Positions 23,603-51,997 of a stretch of DNA of 64,000 nucleotides are shown here, piece after piece. The stretch is from contig JBOGUF010000149.1 of the NCBI GenBank assembly GCA_050696075.1, forward strand, positions 10,507 to 74,506. The letters are read 5' to 3'. Each line of letters begins with the position of its first letter. Positions within the stretch are counted from its first letter, which is position 1. A program made the position numbers and the translations under genes. This DNA is from Thermomicrobiales bacterium. GTDB lineage: Bacteria; Chloroflexota; Chloroflexia; Thermomicrobiales; UBA6265. Below the pieces are notes generated by a model that was given only the letters and a program-made list of their open reading frames with translations, was not told the origin of the DNA and ran no database searches.

Positions 23603-23701
23603 CTACATCGCCCGCCGTGCTTCCAAGTCCTCGAACTGGTCGTCGCGCCAGACGGGGATGTCGCGGTCGGGGTCGCCTTCGGGGCAGATGGGTTTGGCGG
23701 C
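23603..23701 (-). pseudogene. copy of the thyX-like gene 3-prime end (fragment)
   Basis: Reverse translation gives AAKPICPEGDPDRDIPVWRDDQFEDLEARRAM*. The thyX C-terminus is AAKPICPEGERYCGIPVWREYQFEELEARRVM*. Confidence 0.85.
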
Positions 23702-24610: not shown

Positions 24611-24686
24611 TTAGATCACCCGCCGCTTCTCCAACTCCTCGAACTGGTCGTTGCGCCAGACGGGGAGGCCGCGGTCGCGCTCGCCG
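24611..24686 (-). pseudogene. copy of the thyX-like gene 3-prime end (short fragment)
   Basis: Reverse translation gives ERDRGLPVWRNDQFEELEKRRVI*. Confidence 0.8.
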
Positions 24687-28219: not shown

Positions 28220-28354
28220 TCACATCACCCGCCGGTTCTCTAATTCCTCGAACTGGTAGGCGCGCCAGACGGGGATGCCGCAGTAGCGTTCACCTTCGGG
28301 GCAGATCGGTTTAGCGGCGGAGCGGGCGCGCATGACGCGGGGGGCCGTCGACGT
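28220..28354 (-). pseudogene. copy of the thyX-like gene 3-prime end (fragment)
   Basis: Reverse translation gives (YVDG)PPRVMRARSAAKPICPEGERYCGIPVWRAYQFEELENRRVM*. Nucleotide similarity to 34132-34270 is obvious by eye. The stop sits at the end of a short CTGAATC/CTGTCCC heptamer array (28201-28221). Confidence 0.88.
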
Positions 28355-28370
28355 AAGAACAAGCCGGGCA

Positions 28371-29103: not shown

Positions 29104-29229
29104 TCACATCACCCGGCGCGCTTCCAACTCCTCAAACCGGTCGTCGCGCCAGACGGGGAGGCCGCGGTCGGGGTCGCCGTCGGGGCAGATCGGTTTGGCG
29201 GCGGAGCGGGCGCGCATGACGCAGGGGGA
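29104..29229 (-). pseudogene. copy of the thyX-like gene 3-prime end (fragment)
   Basis: Reverse translation gives PPCVMRARSAAKPICPDGDPDRGLPVWRDDRFEELEARRVM*. It begins 9 nt after the stop of the anti-sigma-like gene. Confidence 0.88.
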
Positions 29230-29238
29230 GGCCGGCGA

Positions 29239-34131: not shown

Positions 34132-35871
34132 TTACATCACTCGCCGTGCTTCCAACTCCTCGAACTGGTACTCCCGCCAGACGGGAATGCCGCAGTAGCG
34201 CTCGCCTTCGGGGCAGATCGGCTTGGCGGCGGAGCGGGAGCGCATGACGCAGGGGGGGCCGTCGACGTAGCGGCCGATGGTGGGGTGGACTTCCCGGATT
34301 TGGGCGACTTCCTGGCGGGCGGTGGCGAAGATTTCGCGCTGGGCGTCGTAGCAGAGGCGCTTGATCCACTTCCAAAAGTAGGTGAGTAGGGTACCGCTCT
34401 CGTAGAAGCGGACACGGTGGGCGTTGGGCAGGAGGTAGAGGGCGACTTCCGGGGCGACGCCCTGGTCGAGCAACGCGTTCTTCGCGTCCCAGAGCGCTTG
34501 GACGGTGGCGTCGTACTCGGCGCGGGCAGCCGGGTTGCGGGCAATGGCCCAGGGGAGGATGACGTCCGGGTCGCGGCGGAGGTGGGCGCTGAGGATGGGG
34601 CCGGAAGAGAGGGTGCCGCGGTGGCGCTGGTTTTGGGCTTCTTCCGCGCCGCTGATGCGCTTCTGGAAGGTGAAGGGAACGTGGTTCATCGTTTGCATCA
34701 GCTTCGAGTGCATGCCGAGGAAGAGGGCGTGGCCGAGGTACGGATTCTGTGAGCCATCGAGGACCTGAGCGATGGCGTCCTCGTCGGAGAGGGCGTCCGG
34801 GGTGAGGCCGAGGACGGTGCGGACGGCGTCGGCCATCGTCCGCTCGGCGGCGGGATTGTGGCTGATGAGCTTGCTGTCGAGGTCACCGAGCTCCTCGTCG
34901 AAGCGGCGGCAGAAGGCTTCCGTCTCCTCCGGGGTTTGGGCGAGGTTGGCTTGCCAATTGGCCAAGGCCTCAGCTTCGAGCGTGTCGTCGGTGCTGAGGG
35001 CGCGCAGATCGAGCGGGTGGTCGGGCGCGCCGAGGAAGTAGGGATCGAGGGCGAGGACTTCTTCGACCATGCGGTTGACGATGAAGCGGACCTCGGTCGG
35101 GGCGTCCGGTTGGTTGGCGAGGGCGTGGTAGCGGAGCAAGGTGAGCCCGTTGACGGTGTGATAGAGGTGGGCCGGGGTGGCGAGGGGGAGGACGTAGCGG
35201 GCGACTTCTTGGGCGCGCTTCTGGACGGCGCCGGCGACGCGCTCCTCGGCCCGTGGCCCCTTCGCCTTGGCACGGGCGGGAAAGACGGTGGCGTAGTCGC
35301 GCTGAAAGTCGGGGATGAGGATCTCGGTGAGGCGGCGGTAGCCCTCGAGGCTGCGCTCGATGGCGTCCTGGTAGATCGACAGCATCGGCTCGGGCAACGC
35401 CGGCGTGACCATGACCTTGCCGGAGACTTCGCGGTAGCGCTGGGAGACCTGCTCCGAGTTATAGAAGGGGTGGGCGTGGAAGAAGGACCAGATCGCCAGG
35501 CGGGAGACATTGTCGAGGACGAAGACGAAGGTGGCGTGCTGGAGGGTGGTGTGGTGGCCGGCGGCGAAGAGATCGGCGTAGAGCTTGAGGGTGCGCTGGC
35601 GGCGGTCTTCGCGTTCGGCGGCCTTTTCCGGGCTGAGACCTTCCGGGGCGGGGCCGTGGATGAGTTTGAGGACGTTCTCGACCTTGGCCGGGCGGGCGCC
35701 GTAGCAGGACCAGGCGGCGGCGACGGAGAGGGCGAAGGGGTGGTGGCTCGATTCGTCGCGCAACAGGGTGACGACGGGCGCGGCGGAATGGAACGGCGAC
35801 GGTGCGTGGCCGTTCGATGTCGCGGCCGGTGTTTGGGTGGTGGTTGGTTGTTCAATCACGGTGGCCGACAT
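34132..35871 (-). CDS. thyX: FAD-dependent thymidylate synthase ThyX-like, long two-lobe form with Cys-rich C-terminal tail
   Basis: ThyX motifs HHTTLQHATFVF..SEQVSQRY (first lobe, with RHR degenerate) and QNQRHRGTLSS (second lobe). Start placed at the ATG at 35871, with a GGAGG RBS 10 nt upstream. The track ORF N-terminus (MLRCLSMTT) is a translated REP element. Confidence 0.85.
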   Translation of the reverse strand: MSATVIEQPTTTQTPAATSNGHAPSPFHSAAPVVTLLRDESSHHPFALSVAAAWSCYGARPAKVENVLKLIHGPAPEGLSPEKAAEREDRRQRTLKLYADLFAAGHHTTLQHATFVFVLDNVSRLAIWSFFHAHPFYNSEQVSQRYREVSGKVMVTPALPEPMLSIYQDAIERSLEGYRRLTEILIPDFQRDYATVFPARAKAKGPRAEERVAGAVQKRAQEVARYVLPLATPAHLYHTVNGLTLLRYHALANQPDAPTEVRFIVNRMVEEVLALDPYFLGAPDHPLDLRALSTDDTLEAEALANWQANLAQTPEETEAFCRRFDEELGDLDSKLISHNPAAERTMADAVRTVLGLTPDALSDEDAIAQVLDGSQNPYLGHALFLGMHSKLMQTMNHVPFTFQKRISGAEEAQNQRHRGTLSSGPILSAHLRRDPDVILPWAIARNPAARAEYDATVQALWDAKNALLDQGVAPEVALYLLPNAHRVRFYESGTLLTYFWKWIKRLCYDAQREIFATARQEVAQIREVHPTIGRYVDGPPCVMRSRSAAKPICPEGERYCGIPVWREYQFEELEARRVM

Positions 35872-35930
35872 CTCCCGCATGCCTCCATTAGGCCGTATTT
35901 GCACACTGTCATCCGGCGGCGGCGGGCGCT

Positions 35931-36024
35931 CCGTCGTCATGCTGAGGCAGCGAAGCATCCCCGCGCGCCGCGCCGACGGACCGGCTTCGCCGGGGGATGC
36001 TTCGGCTTCGCCTCAGCATGACGG
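35931..36024. repeat. REP/MITE-like nested palindrome, copy 2
   Basis: ccgtcgtcatgctgaggcagcgaagcatccccgcgcg...cgccgggggatgcttcggcttcgcctcagcatgacgg. Flanking ttagg..tttgca / gcaaac..ccctaa extensions reach about 35888-36047. Confidence 0.85.
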
Positions 36025-38002: not shown

Positions 38003-38019
38003 CGCCGCGCTCCTTGCCG

Positions 38020-39332: not shown

Positions 39333-39396
39333 GGCTCGTCTCCCACCGTGTCGCGCCATCCGCATTGAGATCGTACCGCATCGGCGGCGTCCGGTG

Positions 39397-40930: not shown

Positions 40931-41389
40931 CTACCGCGCCGGAAGCATGCCCAGAATACGTTCCAACTGCTTGCGGTCGTTCTCGACCAGATCCCGGATG
41001 CGCGCGCGAATCGTTGTCCCGCCGGTGACCTCCTGATCCCATTCGCCTTCTTCGAGTGGGCGCAGGAGGGCGAGTGTGACCTCGCGGGCGTAGCCGAACT
41101 GCGCGATCAGCACGGCGGTCGTGTCGTCTGAGTGCTCGGTGCCGACGATCGGCGCCTCGTCCCCGAAGATGTCGGGCATCGGCACACCGGTCACGTACTC
41201 CTTCAGCGCCTGCGAGAAGCGCAACTCATCATCACGCAAGCGGCGTACCACGTCGCGGACGGAGGCGCCGCCGGAGCCCACTTGGCGGGCCTGTGCCTCC
41301 GGCGCCTGGCGGACCTTGATGTTGAGCTCGCGAAAGGTGTTGATGAGCCCATCGATGAGCTCCTGGGATGATCCCGTCTGCACCGCCAT
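40931..41389 (-). CDS. DinB-like helical-bundle protein (tentative)
   Basis: About 152 aa with a helical pattern. Weak resemblance to DinB/YfiT-type proteins. Confidence 0.5.
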   Translation of the reverse strand: MAVQTGSSQELIDGLINTFRELNIKVRQAPEAQARQVGSGGASVRDVVRRLRDDELRFSQALKEYVTGVPMPDIFGDEAPIVGTEHSDDTTAVLIAQFGYAREVTLALLRPLEEGEWDQEVTGGTTIRARIRDLVENDRKQLERILGMLPAR

Positions 41390-41749
41390 GATTCCTCCCC
41401 CCGTTCCGCGCATTCCCCTGCCAGTTAATACGCACGACGCGGCGTTTGGTTTATCCGCGCCCCGTGCCGCGCCGGTCGCTTGCTACCGATTGTACGCACC
41501 AACGTGCTCGACGCCAACAACCGGGCGTACTATCGGGGCGGTCCATTCGTTCGGATGGGCGTGCGGGAGCGGTGGAAGGCGCGGGAATTGAGGGGGGTGG
41601 AACGAGTGAAGCGAGTGTTGAATGCCGATGACCCGGGGATAAATCCCCAGGCTCCACCGACGAAGCCCTTCCCAGGCTGTGCTGATCGCGCATTGAGTTT
41701 AATCCAGCGAGGCGGCAGCTACCGAGGACCCAGATGACACGGTGCTGCC

Positions 41750-42097
41750 ATGTACCGTGCCTATTACGCCGCCTTTAGCAGTGCGGCGGAGTATCTCCTG
41801 GCGAATACACCGAATCTTGTCCGAACCGCACTGACCCACGACACCGTCTGGCACGCGTTCCGCGACACGACCGATCGTGATCGCTGGACGATCTTCGACG
41901 ATGGCATGAATCTCAAACACCATAGGATCGACGCCGACTATTGGCGACCGATGGGGGTACGCCGGCCCCAATCCATTGTGCGCGACGTGCTCATTCGTTC
42001 GGCGCGGATTCTGCGCGTGCTTCAGCAAGTCCAGTCCTCGTTAGGATCAGATCGCCAGCAACTCCTCAACCTTGAACAGATCGGCGTTGAGGATTGA
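41750..42097 (+). pseudogene. degenerate paralog of the HEPN-like gene at 50106..50501
   Basis: Shares AAEYLLANTPNL..THD.VWH.F...RDRWTIFDDGMNLKHHRIDADYWRPM with the intact copy. It lacks the first ~40 aa; the upstream frame is broken by a frameshift and a stop. It reads through into the asd-tail copy. Confidence 0.6.
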
Positions 42098-42105
42098 GGG
42101 TCTGA
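42047..42105 (-). pseudogene. copy of the asd 3-prime end (fragment)
   Basis: Reverse translation gives PSILNADLFKVEELLAI*. The asd C-terminus is GASILNAELFRVEGLLPV*. Confidence 0.75.
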
Positions 42106-42253
42106 TGGAGTCGAGGACGGCGATGTGGTCGACGATCCGGTGGATTGGACAGGGACCGTGGGGCCGGCTTACAGGGCAATGTATGGGGGCGTGGAGCGGT
42201 TTGGTAAGATAGACGCAAAGTATCAGTGTATCGGTCGTGGCGAGGTGTGGGCG

Positions 42254-45200
42254 ATGGTGGCGCCGTTCGATGCGCCGGTCGTCTGCCCGATCCTCGTCGG
42301 GCGCGCACTGCACCTGGCCTCGCTTCAGCGCTGCATCAATCAGGTGCTGGGCGGGCAGGGCAAGCTCGTGCTCGTCGGGGGCGAGGCGGGCATCGGCAAG
42401 TCGCGGTTGGTGACCGAGGCGAGAACGCTTGCCGAAGGGCAAGGGATGCTCGGCTTGCAGGGACATGCCTTCGAGCCGGACCGCGCGGTGCCCTATGCGC
42501 CGCTGCTCGACCTGTTGCGGACCTTCGTCGCTTCCCTGGCGCCGGAGGAGGTACCACGGCAGCTTGGTCCGTCCGGTCCCGAGTTGACGAAGTTGGTCCC
42601 TGAGCTGTGCGGGTTGTTGCCCGCCGCGCGGCCGATGCCCGCGCTCGATCCCGCGCACGAGAAGCGTCGCCTTTTTCACGCGCTCGGGCAATTTCTTAGC
42701 CACCAGGCCGAAACGCGGCCGGTGCTGGTCGTCGTCGAAGACGTGCATTGGACCGACGACACGAGCCTGGAATGGTTGCGCTACCTGGCGGGGCGGATCG
42801 CCACGCGGCCGATACTCATCCTCCTGACCTTCCGCAACGACGAGGTGGGGGAGAGCCTGGCCCACACGCTGGCGGAACTGGACCGAGTGCGGGCCGTGGC
42901 CGAGCTGCGCTTGACGCGGTTATCTGCCGCCGACGCCCGCGCGATGGTCGACGCGATCGTTGCGGGACAGCGCCGGTTTCCCGGCGCCCTGATCAACGAG
43001 ATCTACGCTCTGACTGACGGCAACCCGTTCTTCATCGAAGAAGTCTTGCGCTCGGTGATTGCCGCGCGGTCAGACGACGGTGGCGGGGCAACGGCCGCGA
43101 TCGGTGGGCTGCCGATCCCCCGCGGCGTCGAGGATGCGATCCAACGGCGGGCGGCACAACTCAGCGAGGACGCCCGCCGGACCTTGACGCTGGCGGCCGT
43201 GACCGGGCGGCGCTTCGACTTCACGCTCTTGCAGGCGCTGACCCGGTGTGGCGCAGCCGACCTCCTGCGGCAGATCAAGGAACTGATCGCGGCGCAACTG
43301 GTGGTCGAGGAGTCGGACGAGCGGTTCGCCTTCCGCCACGCGCTGACGCGGCAAGCGATCGACGCCGGTCTCCTGGCGCGGGAGCGCCACGCGTTGCACC
43401 GGGAGGTGGCGGAGACGATCGAGCGAACCTACGCGGGCGCGCTCGATGAGTACGTCGCTGATCTGGCGCAGCACTTCTTCGAGGCGGGGGTGTGGGCGAA
43501 GGCGTTGGAGTACGCGCGGCGTGCCGGGGAAAACGCGCTCGGTTTGCATGCGCCGCGTGCTGCGGTCGAACACCTGACGCGCGCGCTGGAGGCAGAGACG
43601 CGGTTGGGACTGCCCGCAAGAGCGCGGACGCGGCGAGATCGCGGGCGAGCCTACGAGACGCTTGGCGACTTTGAGCGGGCACGCGCCGACGACGAGGCGG
43701 CGCTGGAGATTGCGCTAACGGCGGGCGATCGACGGGAGGAGTGGCAGGCGCTTCTGGCACTGGGGATGTTGTGGGCGGGCCGTGACTACGCGCGGACCGG
43801 CGGCTATTGGCGGCGCGCCCTGGACGTGGCGCGGGAGATGGGCGATGCCTCCGCGATTGCCCACAGCCTGAATCGGGTGGGCAATTGGCACACGAACATC
43901 GAAGAACCGCACGCCGCGCGGGCGTACCATCAGGAAGCACTCGCCATCTTTGAAACGGCCAACGACCGGCGCGGCATCGCCGAGACGTTGGATTTCCTGG
44001 GCATGGCGAGCTACCTCGGCGGCGACGTGCTCCCTGCCGCGCGCTACTACGAACGCGCCGTCGATCTGTTCGGCGAGTTGGACGACCGGCAAGGCGTGGT
44101 TTCCGGCCTGGCAATGATGACGATCGGGAGCGGAGACATCGCGGCCTATACCAAACCTTCACCCATCACGACCTTCGCCGAGCGGGCGCGGGCCGGCGAG
44201 CTGGGCGAGTTGGCGGTAGCGATCACGCGTGAAATCGACTGGCGTTCCGGCGAAGCGTATGCCTGTTTCACCACGGCGATCTGCGCCAGCGCGAAAGGGG
44301 AGTACGCGTTGGCGTTGCCGCGCGCTCACGAGGCCCTGGCCATTGCGCGGGAGATCGAGCACCGGCAGTGGACGACGTCGTCGCAAATCGGTCTGGGCAT
44401 CCTCTTTCTTGATTTGCTGGACTTGGCGCAGGCTCAGCGCCACCTAGAGCAGGCCGTGGCGCTGGCGAACGCCATCGGGTCGCTGTACTGGGTTCGTATG
44501 GGCTCGGGGTTTCTTGCCTCGACGCTCGTTGCGCGGCGTGATCTCGCGCGGGCGGAATCCGTCCTGCAGACAGCCCTCGGACCCGATGACCCGGCGCAGA
44601 CCCTGGCGCAACGACGGGTCTGGTATGCACGCGGTGAGCTTGCCCTTGCCCGCGGCGACGCGGACCTCGCCTTGCGGATCGTCGACCAATTGGTCGCGAC
44701 CGCCGATGACGGCGAGGACAGCAACGCGAGGAGTGTTCCCCATCTTGGACGGCCGCGGGGGGCGGCGCTGGCCGCGCTGGGGCGACCGGCGGAGGCGGAA
44801 GCCGCGTTCCAGGCGGCGCGCGTTGGGGCGGAAGCCCGCGGGGCACGGCCGCTGCTGTGGCGTGTCCACCTCGCCCTTGGCGATCTGTTCGAGACCCAGA
44901 CTCGCGGAGACGCCGCCGCGCGCGAGTTCGCGGCTGCCCGCGCCATCATCGAGGCGCTGGCCGTCGATATACCCGATGACGCCGTGCGGGCAACGTTTCT
45001 GCGGGGCGCGGCCGAGCTTCATCCACGGCTGAGGCCGCTCTCGCCGCACCAAGCCGCGAAGCGGGCGTTCGGTGGGCTGACCGAGCGCGAACGGGACGTG
45101 GCCGCTCTGATCGCGCGAGGCAAGTCGAACCGGGAGATCGCGGCGGACTTGTTCGTCAGCGAGCGGACCGTGGCCACCCACGTCGGCAATATCCTCGCCA

Positions 45201-45271
45201 AGTTAGGGCACTCCTCGCGGACCCAGGTTGCGCTCTGGGCGCAGGCAAAGGGGCTAACGGACCCAGAGTGA
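42254..45271 (+). CDS. large LuxR-family regulator (LAL/MalT-like: AAA ATPase + TPR + LuxR HTH)
   Basis: Walker A GGEAGIGKSRL, TPR repeats, and the C-terminal HTH LTERERDVAALIARGKSNREIAADLFVSERTVATHVGNILAKLG. Start set at the ATG at 42254 (GAGGTG RBS). The track start at 42125 lies in the asd-tail copy. Confidence 0.88.
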   Translation: MVAPFDAPVVCPILVGRALHLASLQRCINQVLGGQGKLVLVGGEAGIGKSRLVTEARTLAEGQGMLGLQGHAFEPDRAVPYAPLLDLLRTFVASLAPEEVPRQLGPSGPELTKLVPELCGLLPAARPMPALDPAHEKRRLFHALGQFLSHQAETRPVLVVVEDVHWTDDTSLEWLRYLAGRIATRPILILLTFRNDEVGESLAHTLAELDRVRAVAELRLTRLSAADARAMVDAIVAGQRRFPGALINEIYALTDGNPFFIEEVLRSVIAARSDDGGGATAAIGGLPIPRGVEDAIQRRAAQLSEDARRTLTLAAVTGRRFDFTLLQALTRCGAADLLRQIKELIAAQLVVEESDERFAFRHALTRQAIDAGLLARERHALHREVAETIERTYAGALDEYVADLAQHFFEAGVWAKALEYARRAGENALGLHAPRAAVEHLTRALEAETRLGLPARARTRRDRGRAYETLGDFERARADDEAALEIALTAGDRREEWQALLALGMLWAGRDYARTGGYWRRALDVAREMGDASAIAHSLNRVGNWHTNIEEPHAARAYHQEALAIFETANDRRGIAETLDFLGMASYLGGDVLPAARYYERAVDLFGELDDRQGVVSGLAMMTIGSGDIAAYTKPSPITTFAERARAGELGELAVAITREIDWRSGEAYACFTTAICASAKGEYALALPRAHEALAIAREIEHRQWTTSSQIGLGILFLDLLDLAQAQRHLEQAVALANAIGSLYWVRMGSGFLASTLVARRDLARAESVLQTALGPDDPAQTLAQRRVWYARGELALARGDADLALRIVDQLVATADDGEDSNARSVPHLGRPRGAALAALGRPAEAEAAFQAARVGAEARGARPLLWRVHLALGDLFETQTRGDAAAREFAAARAIIEALAVDIPDDAVRATFLRGAAELHPRLRPLSPHQAAKRAFGGLTERERDVAALIARGKSNREIAADLFVSERTVATHVGNILAKLGHSSRTQVALWAQAKGLTDPE

Positions 45272-45529
45272 TATCCCCGACATTTCGAACCGCCGCGAGG
45301 GATCGTCCCGTGCCTCTTACGTAGGCGAGATTCCTCTCTGCGATCGGAATGACGGAGTGGCGCTCTCCGCGTAGACCGGAATCTCCGTAACACCGTACCC
45401 ACCATCTCGTCATTTTTGCTGATCCCTCAGGACGACCACGCTTCTACTGTGGAAGGCGTCACCGTTGGCACGGCGGCCAGGCGCGGCGGAACGTTGGTCG
45501 GTGGGTGATGTGCGGAAAGGAGAGCGCCG

Positions 45530-45811
45530 ATGCCCAAGTTTCTGGTTGAGCGGAAGATCCCGAGTGCCGGGCGAATGAGTCTTGAGGAGTTGCGGGCCAC
45601 CGCCGCAACGTCGAACGACGTCGTCCATGACATGCAGCGGGACGGCACGCCGATCCAGTGGGTCCAGGGATTCGTCACGGACGACGCGATCTTCTGCGTC
45701 TATCTGGCGCCGGACGCGGAGGCGATTCGCGGCCACGCCAGCACCAGCGGGTTCCCGGCCGACCAGGTGATGGACGTGCGCGCCGTCATCGACCCGACGA
45801 CCGGGGAGTAG
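45530..45811 (+). CDS. DUF4242 domain-containing protein
   Basis: 93 aa. MPKFLVER...FCVYLAPDAEAIRGHASTSGFPADQV matches the DUF4242 pattern. GGAAAGGAG RBS. Confidence 0.7.
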   Translation: MPKFLVERKIPSAGRMSLEELRATAATSNDVVHDMQRDGTPIQWVQGFVTDDAIFCVYLAPDAEAIRGHASTSGFPADQVMDVRAVIDPTTGE

Positions 45812-45944
45812 TAGGTAGCAGAACCGATTTCTGAACAAAGGGGATCGCCATGCGACGCCCTACCGTTGCCCTCGAGACCGTCGTCCTCGGACGGATGGCT
45901 CGATGACGCACGCGGCACGCAATTGCAATGCAGGAGGAACTGCT

Positions 45945-47168
45945 GTGAATCATCGTCGCAGATTGACTCTCGCCGTCGTCGGCACGCTGGCATTGATACT
46001 GTTCGGACCGCTCTTTGCCGCGGCCCAAGATGCCACCCCGGATGCTTCCCAAGGCGGAGTGACGGTGGTAGCGAGCGGGCTGACCAATCCACGGGGTTTT
46101 GTGTGGGACGAGGACGGCACGATGTACCTCGCCCTGGCTGGTACCGGCCTTGATACCTCGGCCATGCCGGCGGGCACTGGTTCTCCCGCGGCAGAAAGCG
46201 AGGATGCCGGGGCCGGGACCGGCTCGCCGGTCGTCGAGGGCGTCGGCGAGGGCGGGACGACCGCCAGCCTGACCGCCGGGGTGATCACCATCGTCGACGG
46301 CTGCGCCATGCCGGTGGTGGAGGGTTGGCCCTCGGGCGGGCTGCCGGAGTTGGGGTGGGTGCTGGGCGTCTCCGACCTGGCGTTCCTGGACGGCCAACTC
46401 TATGCCCTGGTGGACCTGCACGGGGCCGGTCCGGTCGCGTCGCACGAGGAGGAGGTGCCGAACGGCGTCTACCGGGTCGAGGACGACGGCACGATGACGC
46501 TGGCGGCCGACATCTCCGCCTGGATCCAGGCCAACCCGGTCGCGGAGCCGCACGAGCCGCTCAGCCCGTATGGCGAGCCGTTCGCGATGATCGCCGGGGA
46601 CGGCATGCTCTGGATTGCCGAGGCAAACCATCAGCAGGTGCTGACCGTGACGCCGGACGGCACGATCGCCCGCGTGGCCGATCTCTCGGTGCTGGGCAAC
46701 GCGGCGCCGGACGCGCTGGCGCCGGCGCCGGGCGGCGGGGTCTACGTCGGGCTGCTGACGGCGCTGCCGTTTACCGATGGCACGGCGAAGGTGATCGAGG
46801 TGGCGCCCGATGGGACCGTCTCCGACATCTGGACCGGGTTGACGGCGGTGACGTCGATCGCGGTGGCGGACGACGGGACGCTCTACGCGCTGGAGATGGC
46901 GACGGGCAACAGCCCCGATCCGCCGTTCTATGCGCCCGGCACCGGGAAGGTCGTGCGCCAGACCGGGCTGGACAGCGCCGAGGAGGTCGTGAGCGGGCTG
47001 ACCTTCCCGGTCAAGATGAAGTTCGGGCCGGATGGCGGGCTCTACGTCGGTTCCCCCGCCGTCGGCGCGAACAGCGGCGAGGGGATGATTGTGCGGATCG
47101 ACGTGTCGTCGGCCAACGTGATCGCGATGGCGGATCAGGCCGCGACTGAGGATTCCTGCACGTCGTAA
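45945..47168 (+). CDS. ScyD/ScyE-family beta-propeller-like secreted protein
   Basis: GTG start after GGAGGA, followed by a signal peptide. GLTNPRGFVWDEDGTMYLA is typical of the ScyD/ScyE family. Confidence 0.7.
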   Translation: MNHRRRLTLAVVGTLALILFGPLFAAAQDATPDASQGGVTVVASGLTNPRGFVWDEDGTMYLALAGTGLDTSAMPAGTGSPAAESEDAGAGTGSPVVEGVGEGGTTASLTAGVITIVDGCAMPVVEGWPSGGLPELGWVLGVSDLAFLDGQLYALVDLHGAGPVASHEEEVPNGVYRVEDDGTMTLAADISAWIQANPVAEPHEPLSPYGEPFAMIAGDGMLWIAEANHQQVLTVTPDGTIARVADLSVLGNAAPDALAPAPGGGVYVGLLTALPFTDGTAKVIEVAPDGTVSDIWTGLTAVTSIAVADDGTLYALEMATGNSPDPPFYAPGTGKVVRQTGLDSAEEVVSGLTFPVKMKFGPDGGLYVGSPAVGANSGEGMIVRIDVSSANVIAMADQAATEDSCTS

Positions 47169-47376
47169 CGGCTTCTCCCGCGCTTCCGAGGTCGGGCCGC
47201 GGCACGGCCGCGTCGTCGGGCAAACGGTGATTGAGCGCAGCCACTGACGGCGGAGATTGACCACGGGCACGGCACCTCCGGCATGCGGTACGACACCGGC
47301 ATGTCGGAGGTGAAGCATCCAACCCGTTGAAGAACTCGCGGTCCGCGCGGACCGTCGAGCAGAGGAGGCTCTTGCC

Positions 47377-48549
47377 ATGTGTGAGACGGCTTCGAATCCG
47401 GCTGATGCCGGCGCCGTAGCGAAGATCCTCTCGTCGAAAGGTGCGGCGGCCTCTCGTTTCAGCGATTCAGAACGGGGCGCGATTGCGGCGCACCATCGGG
47501 CGCTCGCCGACAGGCGATGGACCGAGAGCCTGCATGCACGCAGCGAGGCCCTACATCATCATGCGCTGCTGCACGCCGTCCAGGACCAGGAAGTCGGGTC
47601 ACTTCGCAACGCCGTAACGTGGGGGCCTGTGTCATCACAGATCGTTGAGCAAGCGAGACCGCGGAACGCCAGAACCTCCGGCATTGGGCAATCGCCGATT
47701 GGATGCGACGCACATCGCACCTCTCCCCCTTATGCACTTGGCGACCCGCTGCAGGAAGACGTGGGGGTCGGTGCAACGGTGTTGGTGTCGGACGATCCCG
47801 TGGCCCCGGTGTTTGCGGGAGTGGTGCCGGATCTCAACAACCTGAAGACGTTCTCTCAGCTCGCATTGCCCAACGACGGCAAGCTCTCCTTGGGCGTCGG
47901 TCTCGGGAAAGTCCGCGTTGGTGCGAACGTCTACACGCTGCATCCACCCGCTATGGAGTTCCCACAGACCTTCCCAATACGAGGCGGGCTATTGGAGGTG
48001 ACTAACGCCAAAGCTAGCCTGGGCTACCACCTCGCTGTCCTGCCTGGTGCTCCGCTCCAGGTCGAGAAGCTGCTGAAGGTGGCAGTGGACATCATCGTCG
48101 GTGAGCAATCTCGACCATTTTACCTCGTCAATCCACCGGCGATGGGTCCGCCGATTCTGCAAGCGTTCGGCGTTGCCCATCTCGTTGTCTCCAGCTCGGA
48201 CGGGGGAGTAGCCGAAGACGACGTGGTCTTCCTTGAGCACAGGGAGGGAGCCTTCCAGATTTTCGGTACGCCGACCGTCATGCGCGAATTCAGCATCGCT
48301 CAGACGCTCACCCTGCTGCCGGGGACACGCTGGGTATACGTGGGGATCGAGGTGCGTCTAGAAGTACACCGGTGGTTTATTCTGCCGCCACCCCCAGATG
48401 TCGAAGACAGAGAGGGCTTCGTCATGATTGACCTGCGATCGCCCGCGCACAATACGCAGCCCATCCACCATCTCCTCGCACCTGGTGGCTCTGTGAACGT
48501 GCCACATATTGGCATGACGATCTGCCGTCCCGATGAGGTCTTCGCGTAG
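47377..48549 (+). CDS. hypothetical protein (orphan; extent uncertain)
   Basis: 390-codon open frame in an AT-richer segment. About 70 percent GC at third positions in the stretch I checked, which favours this strand. Opposite-strand ORFs are short and in mixed frames. Confidence 0.4.
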   Translation: MCETASNPADAGAVAKILSSKGAAASRFSDSERGAIAAHHRALADRRWTESLHARSEALHHHALLHAVQDQEVGSLRNAVTWGPVSSQIVEQARPRNARTSGIGQSPIGCDAHRTSPPYALGDPLQEDVGVGATVLVSDDPVAPVFAGVVPDLNNLKTFSQLALPNDGKLSLGVGLGKVRVGANVYTLHPPAMEFPQTFPIRGGLLEVTNAKASLGYHLAVLPGAPLQVEKLLKVAVDIIVGEQSRPFYLVNPPAMGPPILQAFGVAHLVVSSSDGGVAEDDVVFLEHREGAFQIFGTPTVMREFSIAQTLTLLPGTRWVYVGIEVRLEVHRWFILPPPPDVEDREGFVMIDLRSPAHNTQPIHHLLAPGGSVNVPHIGMTICRPDEVFA

Positions 48550-48630
48550 CGCGGGGCAGGGTGCGGAGAGCAGCAGGCGCCGCTGCTCTCCGCTCGTCTT
48601 GCCGATCAGAAGGCGGCCCTCTCGCTCCCC

Positions 48631-48690
48631 AAACCGGTAGCAGCCCTTCGACATGGTATTGTGGCCGAGGAGGACGTACTCGATGTCGAT
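48631..48690 (-). pseudogene. copy of the asd 3-prime end with internal ~46-nt deletion
   Basis: aaaccggtagcagcccttcgac matches the asd terminus. It is directly joined to atggtattgtggccgaggaggacgtactcgat, which matches asd 50558-50590 (VLLGHNT). Confidence 0.75.
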
Positions 48691-48760
48691 CGTACAACAT
48701 TGTACAATCGGTGCATTGCTGAACGAACGTATTGTCGTGCCCATGGTAAGGACGAGAGCG

Positions 48761-49078
48761 ATGAGCGAACGAAGCCCTGTAACACAGACGATGAAGGCGT
48801 CCGACGCGCGGCAGCAGTTCAGCGACGTCATCAATCGTGTGTATCGCAACCAGTCGCGCATCCTGATTGAACGTAGCGGCATCCCAGTCGCGGCGATCGT
48901 TCCCGCCGATGACCTGGCACGCTTGGATCGGCTGGAGCGGGAGCGGGCCGAGCGCTTCGCCGGCCTGAGGCGGATCAGCGACGCCTTCGCCGACGTGCCG
49001 GTTGACGAACTGGAACGCGAGGTTGAGCGAGCCGTCGTGGCCCGCCGGGAGCGGGCGCAGGCCGCTGCTGAAGCGTGA
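48761..49078 (+). CDS. Phd/YefM family antitoxin
   Basis: MKASDARQQFSDVINRVYRNQSRILIERSGIPVAAIVPADDLARL is a typical Phd/YefM N-domain. Start is uncertain (48761 or 48791). GTGA overlap with the PIN gene. Confidence 0.78.
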   Translation: MSERSPVTQTMKASDARQQFSDVINRVYRNQSRILIERSGIPVAAIVPADDLARLDRLERERAERFAGLRRISDAFADVPVDELEREVERAVVARRERAQAAAEA

Positions 49079-49515
49079 TTCGCGCGGTCCTCGACATCAA
49101 CGTCCTCCTCTCCGGCATCGTCGGCGTGGAGCGGGGGAGGAGTACCCCGGGTGGGCTCATGCGCGCCTGGCGGGCGCAACGCTTCGAACTCGTCACCTCG
49201 GAGCACATCCGAAGCAGTGTCCAGCGCAACCTGACCGAGGATCCATACTTTTCCCGGCGCCTCCCACCCGAGGAGGTAGCGGCCAATATTGTCTCCTTGG
49301 CCGTCGACGTGACACACGCCATCATTTCCGTCCAGGTGGTTGGGGTTGCAACCCACTCGGAAGACGACTTGGTGCTCTCCGCCGCCGCTAGCGCCGGCAT
49401 CGACTACCTCGTGACCGGCGATCACGGGCTACAAGGCGTCGGATCCTACCAAGGGGTGAAGATCGTCAACCCTCGCGCGTTCCTGGATGTCCTGACAGCG
49501 GAAGTAGCGCCATAA
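49075..49515 (+). CDS. PIN-domain toxin (TIGR00305-like)
   Basis: 146 aa. AVLDINVLLSG and DYLVTGD motifs. Confidence 0.82.
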   Translation: MIRAVLDINVLLSGIVGVERGRSTPGGLMRAWRAQRFELVTSEHIRSSVQRNLTEDPYFSRRLPPEEVAANIVSLAVDVTHAIISVQVVGVATHSEDDLVLSAAASAGIDYLVTGDHGLQGVGSYQGVKIVNPRAFLDVLTAEVAP

Positions 49516-49658
49516 GCCGCTCCGCCCCACGCCGCGAGTCAGCCGACGATCGGGTTGCGGCCAGGTACCGTAATGACGCCGGTAAAACGTCGTCTTAGCT
49601 CGGAACAAGCCACAAGTCCTTTGATTTGACCAGGGCAGGCACGGGAACTTGATGGTCC

Positions 49659-49718
49659 TTACACCGGCAAGAGCCCTTCGACCTTGAAGCGTTCGGCGTT
49701 GAGGATCGACGCCCCGCG
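49659..49718 (-). pseudogene. copy of the asd 3-prime end (fragment)
   Basis: Reverse translation gives RGASILNAERFKVEGLLPV* with its own TAA stop. Confidence 0.8.
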
Positions 49719-49780
49719 AACTGGGATGGATTTGGACGCCTTCGTGCTAATCTATCCATTGGCACCAGTTGGAGGAGCGC

Positions 49781-50113
49781 ATGAGGGCAACAGCGGCATA
49801 CAGTGCAACGGACTATCTGTTTCGCGACGAGGGAGCGGTCCGCGCCTATCTGGACGAGCATCCGGAGGTCATTCCGGCACTGGTCGAAGCCAGCCGACTG
49901 TTGCCGCACTCCTTTGGTATGAACGCTGCCATCGTGCTCGACGTATTGACCGATCCGGAGGAACCAGACGCTACGAACCTTTTTGCGCTCATACGGACCT
50001 CATTGGAGCCCAACGAGGCGCTCCCGTTGCTCGACGACTTCAACGAGCGTTGGTGGCGCCCCGTCTCCGCGACCTTCGACGCCGATGTCCATTTCGGCCT
50101 CGACTATGTCTGA
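49781..50113 (+). CDS. hypothetical protein, putative partner of the HEPN-like protein
   Basis: The ATG at 49781 follows GGAGGAG. 110 aa. 8-nt overlap with the downstream gene, consistent with a two-gene module. Confidence 0.6.
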   Translation: MRATAAYSATDYLFRDEGAVRAYLDEHPEVIPALVEASRLLPHSFGMNAAIVLDVLTDPEEPDATNLFALIRTSLEPNEALPLLDDFNERWWRPVSATFDADVHFGLDYV

Positions 50114-50501
50114 GCCGTTCGAATGGCGGCATCTCCTTGACCTTGCTCTGGAACTCGCACAGCACGCAGATGACGAGACTCGACTGCGAACGGCGGTCAG
50201 TCGCGCCTATGACGCCGCTTATTGCAGCGCGGCAGAATATGTGCTGGCGAATACGCCGAACCTGAAACGCACAGACCTCACACATGACGCTGTTTGGCAT
50301 GTGTTCCGGACTCCAAGCAACCGCGATCGCTGGACGATCTTCGACGACGGGATGAATCTCAAGCATCACCGTATCGACGCGGACTATTGGCGACCGATGC
50401 AGGCCCGTCGACCGGCATCGATTATGCGCGACGCGCTTTATCGATCCGCGCGGATCTTGAGATTGCTCGAAAGGCTGGAACCTGAGTCATCAGACCGGTA
50501 G
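50106..50501 (+). CDS. HEPN domain-like protein (putative toxin)
   Basis: 131 aa. SRAYDAAYCSAAEYVLAN..THDAVWHVF and NLKHHRIDADY resemble the HEPN (PF05168-type) helices and R..ADY motif. Its 3-prime end overlaps the convergent asd stop by 12 nt. Confidence 0.6.
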   Translation: MSEPFEWRHLLDLALELAQHADDETRLRTAVSRAYDAAYCSAAEYVLANTPNLKRTDLTHDAVWHVFRTPSNRDRWTIFDDGMNLKHHRIDADYWRPMQARRPASIMRDALYRSARILRLLERLEPESSDR

Positions 50502-51551
50502 CAGCCCCTCGACCCTGAAGAGTTCGGCGTTGAGGATGGAGGCGCCGGCGGCGCCGCGGATGGTGTTGTGGCCGAGGAGGACGTACTTGACGCCGAGGAT
50601 GGGGCAGGGGCGGACGCGGCCGACGACGGAGGCCATGCCGCGCTCCGCCTCACGGTCGAGGATCGGTTGGGGGCGGTTGCGCTCCTGACGGACGATGACC
50701 GGGCGCGCGGGGGCGCTGGGGAGACCGAGTTCCTGCGGCTTGCCGCGGAAGTTCTCGAAGGCCGCCACGACCTCCTCGGGCGAGGCGGGCTGCTTGAAAC
50801 GAACCGAGACCGCTTCGGTGTGGCCGTCGCGGACCGGGACGCGGTTGCAGGAGGCGCTGACGGTCACCGGGAGGAAGCTGAAGCCGCCGTCGGGTCCGGG
50901 GTAGGCGCCAAGCAGTTTTTGGGTCTCCTCGGCCATTTTCTCTTCTTCGCTGCTGATGAAGGGGACGACGTTGTCGATCATGTCGAGCGAGGGGACGCCG
51001 GGGTAGCCGGCGCCGGAGACGGCCTGCATCGTGGTGACCATCACCGCGTCGAGGCCGAAGGCGTCCTGGAGCGGTTTGAGGGTGAGGACCATGTGGATGG
51101 CGGAACAGTTCGGGTTGGTGGCGATGAAGCCGGACCAGCCGCGGTTGCGCTTTTGCAGCTCGATCGCCTGGACGTGGTCAGGGTTGACTTCGGGGATCAA
51201 GAGGGGGACGTCCGGCTCCATGCGGTGGGTCGAGGTGTTACTGAGGACGGCGTGCCCGTCTTTGGCCAGGCGCTGCTCGATTTCGCCGGCGACCTCGCCG
51301 GGGAGGGCGGAGAAGGCGATCGGGCTGTCGATCTGGTCGGCGTAGTCCTTGATGACCAAGTCGGCGGCGTCCGAGGGCATGAAAGCATCGAGCCGCCAGT
51401 CGGTCGCCTCGCGGTACGTCTTGCCGATCGAGCGTTCGGAAGCGACGAGTTCGGCCACCCGGAACCAAGGGTGGTTGTCAAGGAGTTGGACGAAACGCTG
51501 TCCAACGCTGCCTGTGGCGCCGAGCACGGCTACGGGAATGCGGTCTGCCAT
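50490..51551 (-). CDS. asd: aspartate-semialdehyde dehydrogenase
   Basis: 353 aa. VAVLGATGSVGQRF NAD(P) motif, active-site region NPNCSAI, and C-terminal LLGHNTIRGAAG. Confidence 0.93.
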   Translation of the reverse strand: MADRIPVAVLGATGSVGQRFVQLLDNHPWFRVAELVASERSIGKTYREATDWRLDAFMPSDAADLVIKDYADQIDSPIAFSALPGEVAGEIEQRLAKDGHAVLSNTSTHRMEPDVPLLIPEVNPDHVQAIELQKRNRGWSGFIATNPNCSAIHMVLTLKPLQDAFGLDAVMVTTMQAVSGAGYPGVPSLDMIDNVVPFISSEEEKMAEETQKLLGAYPGPDGGFSFLPVTVSASCNRVPVRDGHTEAVSVRFKQPASPEEVVAAFENFRGKPQELGLPSAPARPVIVRQERNRPQPILDREAERGMASVVGRVRPCPILGVKYVLLGHNTIRGAAGASILNAELFRVEGLLPV

Positions 51552-51574
51552 TGATTGCTCCTTTCGGTCGCAAC

Positions 51575-51604
51575 GGGTCAGGGGTCGGGAGTCAGGAGTC
51601 AGGG
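51575..51604. repeat. tandem heptamer array (GRGTCRG x4), left arm of the four-helix-bundle cassette
   Basis: gggtcaggggtcgggagtcaggagtcaggga. It contains the TGA stop (tca at 51599-51601) of the four-helix-bundle gene. Confidence 0.85.
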
Positions 51605-51973
51605 ACGACGTTCGAGCTTACGCTCAAGAGCGTTTCTTAGAGAAGCGAGTTGTTTGCCTAAGGGCACGACGATTTCCTTCACTTCCTCGAATTGTGCGGC
51701 CTTCAGATACCCAAATCGGACCGCTAATTCACATTGCGTTTCAACCTCCGCCAATGAACTACGAGCAATAGAGATGGCTTGCAAATACTCCTTCGTCGAT
51801 TCCCTGGTGTGTCCCTCCGCGACGTTGGATGGAATTGAAACGGCAGCTCGGCGCAGTTGATTTGCCAGACCATACAGTTCGTGACGAGGAAATGCTTCGG
51901 TTTGCTTGTGGATCATTTCCGCGAGGTCCATCCCTAGTTTCCACACCCGAAGATCCCGAAAGCTCTCAATCAC
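51599..51973 (-). CDS. four helix bundle protein (TIGR02436 / 23S rRNA intervening-sequence protein family)
   Basis: GTG start at 51973 after GAGAGGAG. FRDLRVWKLGMDLAEMIHKQTEAFPRHELYGLANQLRRAAVSIPSNVAEG is the family signature. The upstream part of the track ORF is a shadow. Confidence 0.85.
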   Translation of the reverse strand: MIESFRDLRVWKLGMDLAEMIHKQTEAFPRHELYGLANQLRRAAVSIPSNVAEGHTRESTKEYLQAISIARSSLAEVETQCELAVRFGYLKAAQFEEVKEIVVPLGKQLASLRNALERKLERRP

Positions 51974-51997
51974 CTTCGCTCCTCTCGTCGCCTTTGC

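What the first reader, a model, noticed from the sequence alone, without database searches (positions are those of the whole stretch)
42047..50600. Second locus with the same architecture: three extra copies of the asd 3-prime end
The terminus of asd (tcagaccggtagcagcccctcgaccctgaagagttcggcgttgaggat..., encoding GASILNAELFRVEGLLPV*) recurs on the same strand at three places.

- 49659-49718 encodes RGASILNAERFKVEGLLPV*.
- 48631-48690 has the same terminus fused, through a ~46-nt internal deletion, to the VLLGHNT-coding part.
- 42047-42105 encodes PSILNADLFKVEELLAI*.

The intervals between copies carry a HEPN-type two-gene module, a Phd/PIN pair, and a 6.5-kb block. That block holds an orphan 390-aa ORF, a ScyE-like protein, DUF4242 and a LAL-type LuxR regulator.

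Two unrelated essential genes 16 kb apart show the same pattern. That argues for a general mechanism rather than a one-off rearrangement.
Basis: partly seen in the sequence, partly recalled or inferred. Interest (0 to 1): 0.8.

Follow-up and report, generated by a model that had tools for sequence, protein, structure and literature searches.

The report
Stacked old gene ends beside asd
Three leftover copies of the end of the essential gene asd mark where foreign DNA, mostly toxin-antitoxin modules, was added one piece after another at the gene's end, each piece bringing asd a new end; the scar pattern is a known kind, but no recombination enzyme is present.

Summary
The last 60-110 nt of asd (50490-51551, minus strand) recur at 49659-49718, 48630-48690 (with a 46-nt internal deletion) and 42047-42135. 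All copies are on the asd strand and far exceed chance. thyX, 16 kb away, has four such copies.

Relatives (L004, L007) have asd, three small genes and thyX side by side with no copies, so both arrays are insertions. The nearest relative (L001) and a third lineage (L041) carry the Phd/PIN unit flanked by asd pieces.

The copies differ from the live gene ends almost only by synonymous changes, and stop codons changed only into other stop codons. They are therefore displaced former gene ends, not decayed in-place duplicates.

The best reading is serial single-crossover (Campbell-type) insertion of DNA that carries a replacement gene end plus cargo, kept in place by toxin-antitoxin addiction. No integrase, transposase ends, attC-like hairpins or shared border motifs were found, so the enzyme is unknown.

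The closest known cases are tandem accretion of decayed integrative elements (CIMEs) and "insertion with long target duplication" of restriction-modification genes. This is a new variant of a known kind, of moderate interest.

The parts
50490..51551 (-). asd, aspartate-semialdehyde dehydrogenase (353 aa). This is the anchor gene. Its last ~60-110 nt (50490-50599) is the live copy of the repeat.
   Evidence: Pfam Semialdhyde_dh and Semialdhyde_dhC. 100% identical to NCBI MGH2534213.1 from a Thermomicrobiales MAG.
49719..50489 (+). Cassette 1: a two-gene, toxin-antitoxin-like operon of unknown family. It has a 110-aa gene (49781-50113) and a 131-aa four-helix protein (50106-50501). Their start and stop overlap, and the operon is convergent with asd, overlapping its last 12 nt.
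   Evidence: No Pfam, NCBIfam or PADLOC hit. Only 3 homologues in 5.8 billion proteins. AF2 pLDDT 67.5, with HEPN matches not significant. Absent from L001. GC 0.59 against about 0.69 nearby.
49659..49718 (-). asd 3'-end fragment 1 (60 nt, stop codon TAA), a displaced former asd end.
   Evidence: 11 nt differences from the live end give only 2 aa changes, P=0.0001. Its last 30 nt are closer to the L001 asd tail (4 differences) than to the window's live tail (7 differences).
48691..49658 (+). Cassette 2: a Phd/YefM antitoxin (48761-49078) and a PIN_3 toxin (49075-49515).
   Evidence: Pfam. Colinear at 84% nt with L001 3196-4045 and at 85% with L041 17-858, in both cases bounded by asd pieces.
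48630..48690 (-). asd 3'-end fragment 2: an ~106-nt fragment that has lost 46 nt internally and its stop codon (now TGG).
   Evidence: The orthologous fragments in L001 (4009-4121) and L041 (1-41) keep the deleted part.
42136..48629 (+). Cassette 3 (6.5 kb). Genes: an LAL-type LuxR regulator (42125-45271), an SCO4226-like/DUF4242 protein (45530-45811), a ScyD/ScyE-family protein (45903-47168) and a 390-aa beta-sandwich protein (47377-48549) followed by a terminator-like hairpin (48563-48593).
   Evidence: Pfam and NCBIfam. The 390-aa protein has 36 homologues, AF2 pLDDT 85 and no recombinase-like fold. Hairpin.
42047..42135 (-). asd 3'-end fragment 3 (90 nt, stop codon TGA). It is the oldest and has decayed; it is probably the original asd end.
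   Evidence: 24 nt differences give 17 aa changes, consistent with neutral decay (P=0.95).
41756..42046 (+). Truncated remnant of a homologue of the cassette-1 131-aa gene. It is probably the original downstream neighbour of asd rather than an incoming cassette.
   Evidence: 73% nt identity to 50202-50489. In L037 an intact module lies directly next to the start of the o40931 homologue. No asd fragment is detectable distal to it.
40931..41413 (-). First conserved gene beyond the array. Its homologues follow asd directly in L004 and L007.
   Evidence: tblastn and blastn synteny.
34132..35958 (-). thyX (608 aa, two Thy1 stretches), the anchor gene of the sister array.
   Evidence: Pfam Thy1 1e-54.
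29104..29238 (-). thyX 3'-end fragment (135 nt, stop TGA). The left arm is degenerate and the right arm shows purifying selection.
28220..28355 (-). thyX 3'-end fragment (136 nt, stop TGA), thyX-like along its whole length.
24611..24686 (-). thyX 3'-end fragment (about 72 nt, stop TAA).
23603..23701 (-). thyX 3'-end fragment (about 97 nt, stop TAG), the most distal one.

Best explanation
The three asd-end copies are displaced former ends of asd.

At least three times, a piece of foreign DNA was added at the very end of asd. Each piece carried its own version of the last 60-110 nt of asd plus cargo. It recombined with the resident gene end by one reciprocal crossover (Campbell-type, additive). 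asd thereby received a new, working 3' end, and the previous end was pushed downstream as a dead fragment. Repeating this built the array: asd, cassette 1, fragment, cassette 2, fragment, cassette 3, fragment, original neighbour. thyX underwent the same process four times.

The small cassettes are single toxin-antitoxin-type operons. Their addictive behaviour plausibly protects the units against loss by recombination between the repeats.

Shown here: the insertions, the displaced-end nature of the fragments, and the lack of any recombinase in cis.

Inferred: a circular intermediate and the single crossover.

Not resolved: the catalyst. My split is about 40% host homologous recombination on circles popped out of such arrays or made from relatives' DNA, about 30% a site-specific recombinase encoded elsewhere, and about 30% former integrases of the elements that have since been deleted.
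For: 1. The copies are real, co-oriented, and always run from inside the gene up to the stop codon. Similarity stops there.

2. Empty sites exist. L004 and L007 have asd, o40931, o40113, nudix and thyX contiguous with single gene ends. 22 of 23 related asd loci have no second copy.

3. There is unit-wise polymorphism. L001 (asd 95% aa) has asd directly followed by the Phd/PIN unit and then an asd fragment, with no cassette 1. L041 shows the same unit between asd pieces in a third lineage.

4. The fragments were once live ends.
- c49659 has 11 nt differences but 2 aa changes (P=0.0001).
- The last 12 codons of thyX fragments t29106, t28222 and t24615 give P=0.002, 0.0001 and 0.03.
- Every stop-codon change is stop-to-stop, among TAA, TGA and TAG.
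- The most distal asd fragment and the left arms look neutral, as expected for old or never-expressed parts.

5. The incoming piece carries the gene end. The 380-nt block 'asd end plus neighbouring gene' is homologous as one unit between cassette 1 and the distal remnant. In L037 that module is the direct chromosomal neighbour. No fragment lies beyond the terminal modules.

6. The cassettes have lower GC (0.59-0.63 against about 0.69), and all asd-array genes converge on asd.

7. The pattern is general. L038 has a Phd/PIN operon between 63-nt repeats (92%) of the 5' end of an SDR gene, with the differences mostly synonymous (4 of 6; the other two change the first two codons) and a sharp stop of similarity at the start codon. 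In metagenomes, 4 of 46 Phd/PIN_3 operons have tight flanking repeats against 0.9% of control windows.
Against: - No integrase, resolvase or transposase (other than one IS256 inside the thyX array) is present in the window or in any cassette. The catalytic step is therefore unobserved.
- Homology arms of 60-136 nt at 75-90% identity are poor substrates for RecA-type recombination.
- Three thyX fragments flanking unrelated cargo share the same degenerate left arm (Tyr-Cys changed to Asp-Arg, Glu-Tyr changed to Asp-Asp). Simple capture of relatives' chromosomal pieces does not predict this.
- The test for a replaced tail in the window against L001 is not significant (6 differences in the last 30 nt, p=0.065). 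Gain of cassette 1 cannot be told from its loss in L001.
- Only two or three related lineages exist in public data, so no circular form or fresh insertion has been seen.
Confidence: 0.75

Rival explanations
1. Classical tandem accretion. Each block is the stump of a larger integrative element (ICE, IME or prophage) that once carried its own integrase and targeted the 3' end of asd or thyX. Deletions then removed everything except addictive toxin-antitoxin genes and the att scars, leaving CIME-like elements.
For: - The architecture matches the three-step scheme of integration, decay to CIME, and new integration into the att site that contains the gene end (PMC5704250).
- Variable fragment lengths (60-136 nt) could be deletion end-points.
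- A shared degenerate left arm in three thyX fragments fits one attP family.
- Cassette 1 and the distal remnant, and thyX cassettes B and E, are related modules, as expected for elements of one family.
Against: - Seven blocks contain no integrase and no recognisable integrase remnant.
- Four blocks are exactly one TA operon with about 40-140 nt on each side.
- The same minimal Phd/PIN unit is conserved in three lineages.
- Five unrelated Phd/PIN loci also have TA-only content between their repeats.
- L037 shows the cassette-1-type module as a plain chromosomal neighbour without a fragment.
Confidence: 0.3
2. In-place 'insertion with long target duplication'. The insert arrived without any gene-end copy. 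The target (the last 60-136 nt of the gene) was duplicated during insertion, for example by widely staggered breaks and fill-in, and one copy then decayed.
For: - The phenomenon is documented for restriction-modification genes: repeats from 30 to about 420 bp, no mobility genes, mostly in competent species (PMC2853133).
- Some metagenome Phd/PIN loci have intergenic or promoter repeats rather than gene ends.
Against: - The dead copy should accumulate random changes, about 70% of them non-synonymous. Instead, c49659, t29106, t28222, t24615 and the L038 repeat differ mostly synonymously and keep start or stop codons.
- The repeat edge coincides exactly with the start or stop codon in every case.
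- The asd end and its neighbouring gene are homologous as one block in two places.
Confidence: 0.1
3. Segmental (tandem) duplication of the asd-downstream region followed by deletions and unrelated insertions.
For: The 380-nt block 41756-42135 resembles 50202-50578 in the same order.
Against: - That identity is only 73%, about the same as to a different organism's copy (L037: 75% and 77%).
- No asd sequence upstream of the last ~110 nt recurs.
- The two middle fragments bound unrelated cargo.
- The same pattern at thyX and in L038 would need independent coincidences.
Confidence: 0.03
4. Assembly artefact: a chimeric MAG contig stitched together at short repeats.
For: The source is a metagenome-assembled genome. 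Short-read contigs of relatives break at these repeats (L001 and L041 end in them).
Against: - A second assembly (GCA_975325355.1, L036) has the whole asd array at 99.995% identity over 18 kb.
- L001 and L041 independently show the Phd/PIN unit between asd pieces.
- The fragments are diverged (65-90%) rather than identical, so they would not mislead an assembler.
Confidence: 0.02

Closest known systems
Tandem accretion of integrative elements and CIMEs at the 3' end of a housekeeping gene (ICESt1/ICESt3 family at fda in Streptococcus thermophilus; IME/ICE tandems)
   Same: [quoted passage not shown] The gene stays intact because the incoming DNA supplies a new end. Integrase-less blocks flanked by attL/attR-like scars (CIMEs) are recognised (PMC5704250).
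   Different: No integrase is present in any of seven blocks or in 64 kb. Several blocks are a single toxin-antitoxin operon. There are two arrays on two essential protein genes 16 kb apart. One incoming block is a homologue of the original chromosomal neighbour. No conjugation or mobilisation genes are present.
'Insertion with long target duplication' of restriction-modification gene complexes (Nobusato et al. 2000; Furuta et al. 2010)
   Same: Small addictive gene units without mobility genes, flanked by long and variable direct repeats (tens to hundreds of bp) that are single-copy in empty-site genomes. The mechanism is unknown (PMC2853133).
   Different: The cargo here is toxin-antitoxin genes and other genes, not R-M systems. 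The repeats are gene termini ending exactly at the stop or start codon. The copies are diverged versions shaped by purifying selection rather than near-identical duplicates. The events are stacked into arrays.
ssrA-specific genomic islands of Dehalococcoides (also Chloroflexota)
   Same: Islands integrate at a single-copy essential gene (PMC3146451 abstract). That several islands stack in tandem there, separated by direct repeats of the ssrA 3' end, is from my own knowledge of that paper.
   Different: From my own knowledge of that paper, each of those islands carries its own serine recombinase, the repeats are about 20 bp, and the target is an RNA gene.
Prophage e14 and phage 21 in icd of E. 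coli (from my own knowledge)
   Same: The element carries a diverged copy of the last ~165 nt of an essential-pathway gene. This copy replaces the host end on integration and leaves the old end as a pseudo-fragment.
   Different: That is a single element with its own integrase. It does not form arrays of minimal cassettes.
Chromosomal integron cassette arrays
   Same: Arrays of small, mostly single-operon cassettes, many of them complete toxin-antitoxin operons that stabilise the array (PMC2654758). The genes show an orientation bias.
   Different: There is no intI, no attI, no attC-like imperfect hairpins (z-scores of 0 or above) and no shared border motif. The separators are copies of a host gene end.

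Membership tests
Site-specific integrative elements in tandem (accretion / CIME) | [quoted passage not shown] | tested here: met
   asd and thyX are full length with Pfam domains.
Site-specific integrative elements in tandem (accretion / CIME) | Empty site in related genomes | tested here: met
   L004 and L007 are colinear without copies. 22 of 23 asd loci are single-copy.
Site-specific integrative elements in tandem (accretion / CIME) | A tyrosine or serine recombinase in at least one element of the tandem or elsewhere in the genome with matching specificity | tested here: not met
   No recombinase domain in any ORF of the 64-kb window. The rest of the genome could not be searched.
Site-specific integrative elements in tandem (accretion / CIME) | A fixed crossover core shared by all copies | tested here: inconclusive
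   There are invariant blocks (ATCCTCAACGCCGA in asd copies, CCCGTCTGGCG in thyX copies). In three thyX fragments the left/right switch falls within the last ~36 nt. Selection alone could place it there.
Insertion with long target duplication (R-M type) | Insert under 20 kb without mobility genes, flanked by direct repeats over 30 bp that are single-copy in an empty-site genome | tested here: met
   Cassettes of 0.8-6.5 kb, repeats of 60-136 nt, empty sites in L004 and L007.
Insertion with long target duplication (R-M type) | The two repeats are duplicates of the recipient's own target | tested here: not met
   Divergence is mostly synonymous with stop-to-stop changes. The asd end is co-inherited with the adjacent cassette gene.
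Integron | intI integrase, attI, and attC sites folding into imperfect hairpins between cassettes | tested here: not met
   No integrase (Pfam calls above). The repeats fold no better than shuffles. No shared border motif or inverted repeats.
DDE transposon / IS-mediated insertion | Terminal inverted repeats and a short (under 15 bp) target duplication, with a transposase in cis or trans | tested here: not met
   No inverted repeats at cassette ends. The repeats are 60-136 nt. The only transposase (IS256 family, 26011-27285) is a separate insertion inside thyX cassette C.
Type II toxin-antitoxin module (cargo of cassette 2) | An adjacent, overlapping antitoxin gene and toxin gene with recognised domains | tested here: met
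   PhdYeFM_antitox 5e-10 and PIN_3 3e-13, with a 4-nt overlap. In the thyX array: Rv0623-like plus PIN, and UPF0175 plus DUF3368.
   No Pfam, NCBIfam or PADLOC hit for either protein. The model has low confidence, and the HEPN structures among its matches have E of 0.2 or worse. I saw no nucleotidyltransferase motif in the 110-aa partner's sequence; it has no family hit either.

The most novel reading that the evidence does not exclude
The cassettes are a dedicated kind of minimal mobile unit: a toxin-antitoxin operon or other cargo joined to a mimic of the terminus of an essential host gene. Such a unit would have a degenerate left arm that travels with the cassette and a working right arm that becomes the new gene end. 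It would move as a circle and home to gene termini without any cassette-encoded enzyme, using either host recombination or one unlinked recombinase. The result would be integron-like arrays anchored on essential genes, so that losing the array risks losing the gene end.
Probability: 0.25. Interest if true: 0.75.

Novelty: new variant of a known kind. Interest (0 to 1): 0.48.

Why it matters
How small toxin-antitoxin and defence modules move between chromosomes without visible mobility genes is a long-standing gap. Restriction-modification 'insertions with long target duplication' have been known since 2000 without a mechanism.

This locus offers several things:
- Two stacked arrays on essential genes.
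- Clean empty-site relatives.
- Unit-wise polymorphism between lineages.
- Fragments whose substitution patterns show they were once live gene ends.

Together these make 'end-replacement by additive single crossover' a concrete, testable model for such insertions.

The locus also shows that the ends of essential genes can serve as accretion points for accessory DNA in Chloroflexota. Finally, it warns annotators that short pseudo-ends of core genes mark cassette borders.

Tried and rejected
- **Integrase hunt.** Pfam, NCBIfam and PADLOC on all sizeable ORFs of the window and all cassette ORFs found none.
- **The 390-aa ORF next to a fragment** was suspected to be an integrase. It is a real family, but a confident AF2 model is a helix plus beta-sandwich with no meaningful PDB match, so it is not a recombinase.
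- **tRNA, tmRNA or known RNA as the true target:** none in the window.
- **attC-like hairpins:** none.
- **Shared border motifs or terminal inverted repeats:** none.
- **Further decayed fragments** beyond the terminal modules or in L037: none.
- **Extending the contig.** The asd and left-edge proteins gave no exact look-up. The second assembly L036 is the same strain.
- **Metagenome scan with the cassette-1 protein family:** no hit.
- **Viral-contig scans** with asd- and thyX-fragment patterns: no hit.
- **The contig of homologue P0124** shows a convergent gene of at least 303 aa only 4 nt after the module, but no DNA was available.
- **Excess divergence of the window's asd tail against L001:** not significant (p=0.065).
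- **A common core between the asd and thyX ends:** only a TCGAGG hexamer by eye, which I judged not meaningful.
- **Diversity-generating retroelement reading** (a copy of a gene's 3' end downstream): dropped, because there is no reverse transcriptase and the mismatches are not adenine-specific.
Full report
**Setting**

The window is 64 kb of a high-GC (about 0.69) genome. The asd protein is 100% identical to a Thermomicrobiales MAG protein on an 88,964-nt contig. A second assembly of the same strain (L036) matches 18 kb around asd at 99.995%.

asd is at 50490-51551 on the minus strand (Pfam), downstream of aspartokinase. thyX is a 608-aa protein with two Thy1 stretches at 34132-35958, also on the minus strand.

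**Observation**

- The repeat finder and a self-BLAST of the window recover the three extra asd-end copies on the asd strand. These are 49659-49718 (79-81% identity, E 6e-10), 48630-48690 (two pieces at 91% and 89%, E 4e-6) and 42047-42135.
- Degenerate patterns built from the copies hit only them. The 29-nt pattern gives 3 hits against 0.00 expected, and the 20-nt pattern gives 3 hits against 0.03 expected.
- The 48631 copy lacks 46 nt that its orthologues in L001 and L041 retain.
- The 42047 copy is part of a 380-nt block (41756-42135). This block is homologous at 73% (E 8e-53) to the live asd end plus the 3' part of the gene beside it (50202-50578).
- The same BLAST shows the thyX end (34134-34269) repeated at 29106, 28222, 24615 and 23605, at 82-90% identity.
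- In every copy, similarity runs from a variable inner point up to the stop codon and stops within a few bases after it.

**Cargo**

| Block | Coordinates | Content | Evidence |
|---|---|---|---|
| Cassette 1 | 49719-50489 | Two overlapping genes of 110 and 131 aa; no family hit; only three homologues in 5.8 billion proteins. The 131-aa protein models as a low-confidence helical bundle whose HEPN matches are not significant, so 'HEPN-type' is unproven. | |
| Cassette 2 | 48691-49658 | Phd/YefM antitoxin plus PIN_3 toxin | |
| Cassette 3 | 42136-48629 | LAL-type LuxR, SCO4226-like/DUF4242, ScyD/ScyE-family protein, and the 390-aa ORF | |

The 390-aa ORF is a real gene with 36 representative homologues. 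Its confident model (pLDDT 85) is a long helix plus a beta-sandwich, with no recombinase-like or other convincing match.

The thyX array contains:
- a redox/ECF-sigma block;
- an Rv0623-like/PIN pair;
- a mixed block hit by an IS256 transposase;
- a UPF0175/DUF3368 pair;
- a lone Rv0623-like antitoxin.

All genes of the asd array converge on asd. The small cassettes have GC of 0.59-0.63.

**No mobility machinery**

- No integrase, resolvase or transposase domain occurs in any sizeable ORF of the window, apart from that IS256.
- There is no tRNA, tmRNA or Rfam family.
- Cassette borders share no motif and no inverted repeats.
- The repeats do not fold better than shuffled sequence.

**Comparative evidence**

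- Of 23 related Thermomicrobiales asd loci, only L001 has a second asd-end copy.
- L004 and L007 carry asd, o40931, o40113, nudix and thyX contiguously, each with a single end. These are empty sites for both arrays.
- L001 (asd 95% aa) has asd, then PIN, Phd and an asd fragment. This stretch is colinear with cassette 2 at 84% nt, but cassette 1 is absent.
- L041 is a 969-nt contig seen in 14 samples. It is the same Phd/PIN unit (85% nt) with asd-like sequence at both ends.
- L037 carries an intact homologue of the cassette-1 module directly beside the start of the o40931 homologue, with no asd fragment between them.
- No fragment is detectable beyond the last module of either array.

I therefore read the distal remnant (41756-42046) and the lone antitoxin (22944-23207) as the original neighbours of asd and thyX. 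On this reading, three blocks came in at asd and four at thyX. In each array one incoming block is a homologue of the original neighbour, at 73% and 71% nt.

**What the fragments are**

If a fragment were an in-place duplicate left to decay, at least half of its differences from the live end should be random, and most of those would change amino acids. That is not what is seen.

| Fragment | nt differences | aa changes | P (random substitutions) |
|---|---|---|---|
| c49659 (19 codons) | 11 | 2 | 0.0001 |
| t29106, last 12 codons | 6 | 1 | 0.002 |
| t28222, last 12 codons | 8 | 1 | 0.0001 |
| t24615, last 12 codons | 6 | 2 | 0.03 |

- Wherever an intact stop codon differs from the live gene's, it is another stop codon (thyX TAA against TGA, TGA and TAG; asd TGA against TAA). 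The decayed 48631 copy has lost its stop.
- These stretches therefore evolved as working gene ends until they were displaced. The present ends must descend from a different lineage.
- By contrast, the left parts of t29106, t24615 and t23605 look neutral (P 0.5-0.75). They share derived codons found in no thyX, including loss of a conserved Cys.
- The oldest asd fragment is fully neutral (P 0.95).
- The fragments are thus mosaics: a left arm that never needed to function, and a right arm that did.

This is the product expected from one reciprocal crossover between the gene end and an incoming circle carrying a copy of that end. The gene keeps its own left part and gains the incoming right part. 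The downstream fragment gets the incoming left part and the old right part.

**Generality**

- A Phd/PIN homologue (65% aa) in L038 sits between 63-nt direct repeats (92%). These repeats are the first 21 codons of an SDR gene. Four of the six differences are synonymous and the other two change the first two codons (ATG to GTG, still a start codon; Glu to Ala). Similarity ends at the start codon.
- In an unselected sample of metagenome loci, 4 of 46 Phd/PIN_3 operons have direct repeats of 29-114 nt tightly bracketing just the operon. The rate in same-size control windows is 0.9% (p about 7e-4).
- Caveat: the control windows are not gene-boundary matched, and some of these repeats are intergenic or promoter sequence.

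**Mechanism and rivals**

The shown steps are insertion, end replacement and absence of a recombinase in cis. The circle and the single crossover are inferred. The catalyst is open.

- *Host homologous recombination* fits several findings: no enzyme is present, one incoming block is a relative's version of the original neighbour, and similar insertions of R-M genes occur mostly in competent species (PMC2853133). However, the arms are short and diverged. It also does not explain why unrelated cargo share one degenerate left arm.
- *A recombinase acting in trans*, or *former integrases now deleted* (the CIME accretion scheme, PMC5704250), explains the shared arm and a narrow crossover zone. It is unsupported by any gene here. 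It also sits uneasily with so many units being exactly one toxin-antitoxin operon.
- *True target duplication* is disfavoured by the selection signatures.
- *Segmental duplication* is disfavoured because only the last 110 nt or less of asd ever recur.
- *Assembly artefact* is excluded by independent assemblies and lineages.

The difference between the window and L001 may be a gain of cassette 1 or a pop-out loss in L001. The tail-divergence test is not significant (p=0.065).

**Verdict**

It belongs with tandem att-scar arrays and long-repeat-flanked addiction-gene insertions, and is a new variant of these.

What sets it apart:
- enzyme-less, mostly toxin-antitoxin cassettes;
- stacking on two essential protein genes;
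- direct sequence evidence that each scar is a former live gene end.

Noticed in passing
window 51555-52023: A 23S rRNA-intervening-sequence-type four-helix-bundle gene (51599-52000, minus strand, Pfam 1e-34) lies between aspartokinase and asd. It is bounded by 26-nt inverted repeats of a GGTCAGGAGTCAGG type (51579-51604 / 51998-52023). It is present in L001 (75% aa) and absent from other relatives, whose AK-asd gap is about 90 nt. A similar G-rich motif follows the stop of thyX fragment 28220.
   Followed up: partly
window 13305-13454, 35935-36050, 58670-58829: A dispersed, internally palindromic repeat of about 110-150 nt (73-80% identity, both orientations) lies in intergenic positions. One copy is just upstream of thyX. 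It is probably a REP- or MITE-like element.
   Followed up: no
window 55274-56377: A bacterial type IB topoisomerase gene (Top1B_N_bact plus Topoisom_I) lies 4 kb from asd. No homologue was seen in the 10-kb flanks of related asd loci. The enzyme shares its chemistry with tyrosine recombinases. Any link to the arrays is pure speculation.
   Followed up: no
window 36142-39632: A nitrile hydratase cluster (beta, alpha, accessory) plus a methyltransferase lies between nudix and thyX. In L004 and L007, nudix is directly next to thyX. This is a third insertion in the same 20 kb, with no detected flanking repeat.
   Followed up: partly
window 26011-27285 and 27307-27590: An IS256/Mutator-family transposase (1e-114) sits inside thyX cassette C. 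By eye, an adjacent truncated ORF resembles the DUF2971 family, but it had no Pfam hit.
   Followed up: no
L001 4157-4236 vs window 45274-45353: An 80-nt stretch just after the asd fragment of L001 matches, at 91% and in inverted orientation, the spacer between the LAL regulator and the DUF4242 gene of window cassette 3. It is either a small dispersed repeat or a sign that the next block in L001 is a rearranged relative of cassette 3.
   Followed up: no
L041 (969 nt), ends 1-41 and 923-969: The contig's two ends correspond to asd positions 50544-50584 and 50489-50535. Joined together, they would be 8 nt short of one continuous asd-end copy. This is compatible with a break at chromosomal repeats or with a circular one-unit form.
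   Followed up: no
window 47377-48549: The 390-aa protein belongs to a small uncharacterised family (36 representatives, up to 52% identity). A confident model shows an N-terminal long helix and a C-terminal beta-sandwich, and there is no convincing structural relative.
   Followed up: yes
window 9042-11468, 20017-22578, 42125-45271: Three STAND/AAA plus TPR plus LuxR-type regulators occur in 64 kb. Two are paralogues (67% over 1.1 kb), one borders the thyX array, and one is cargo of asd cassette 3.
   Followed up: no
window 49541-49581: There is a weak resemblance (z 1.7, 16 of 300 shuffles as good) between the spacer after fragment 49659 and the VLLGHNT-coding part of asd. It may be a further, almost erased fragment. 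This spacer is about 100 nt longer than in L001 and L041.
   Followed up: partly
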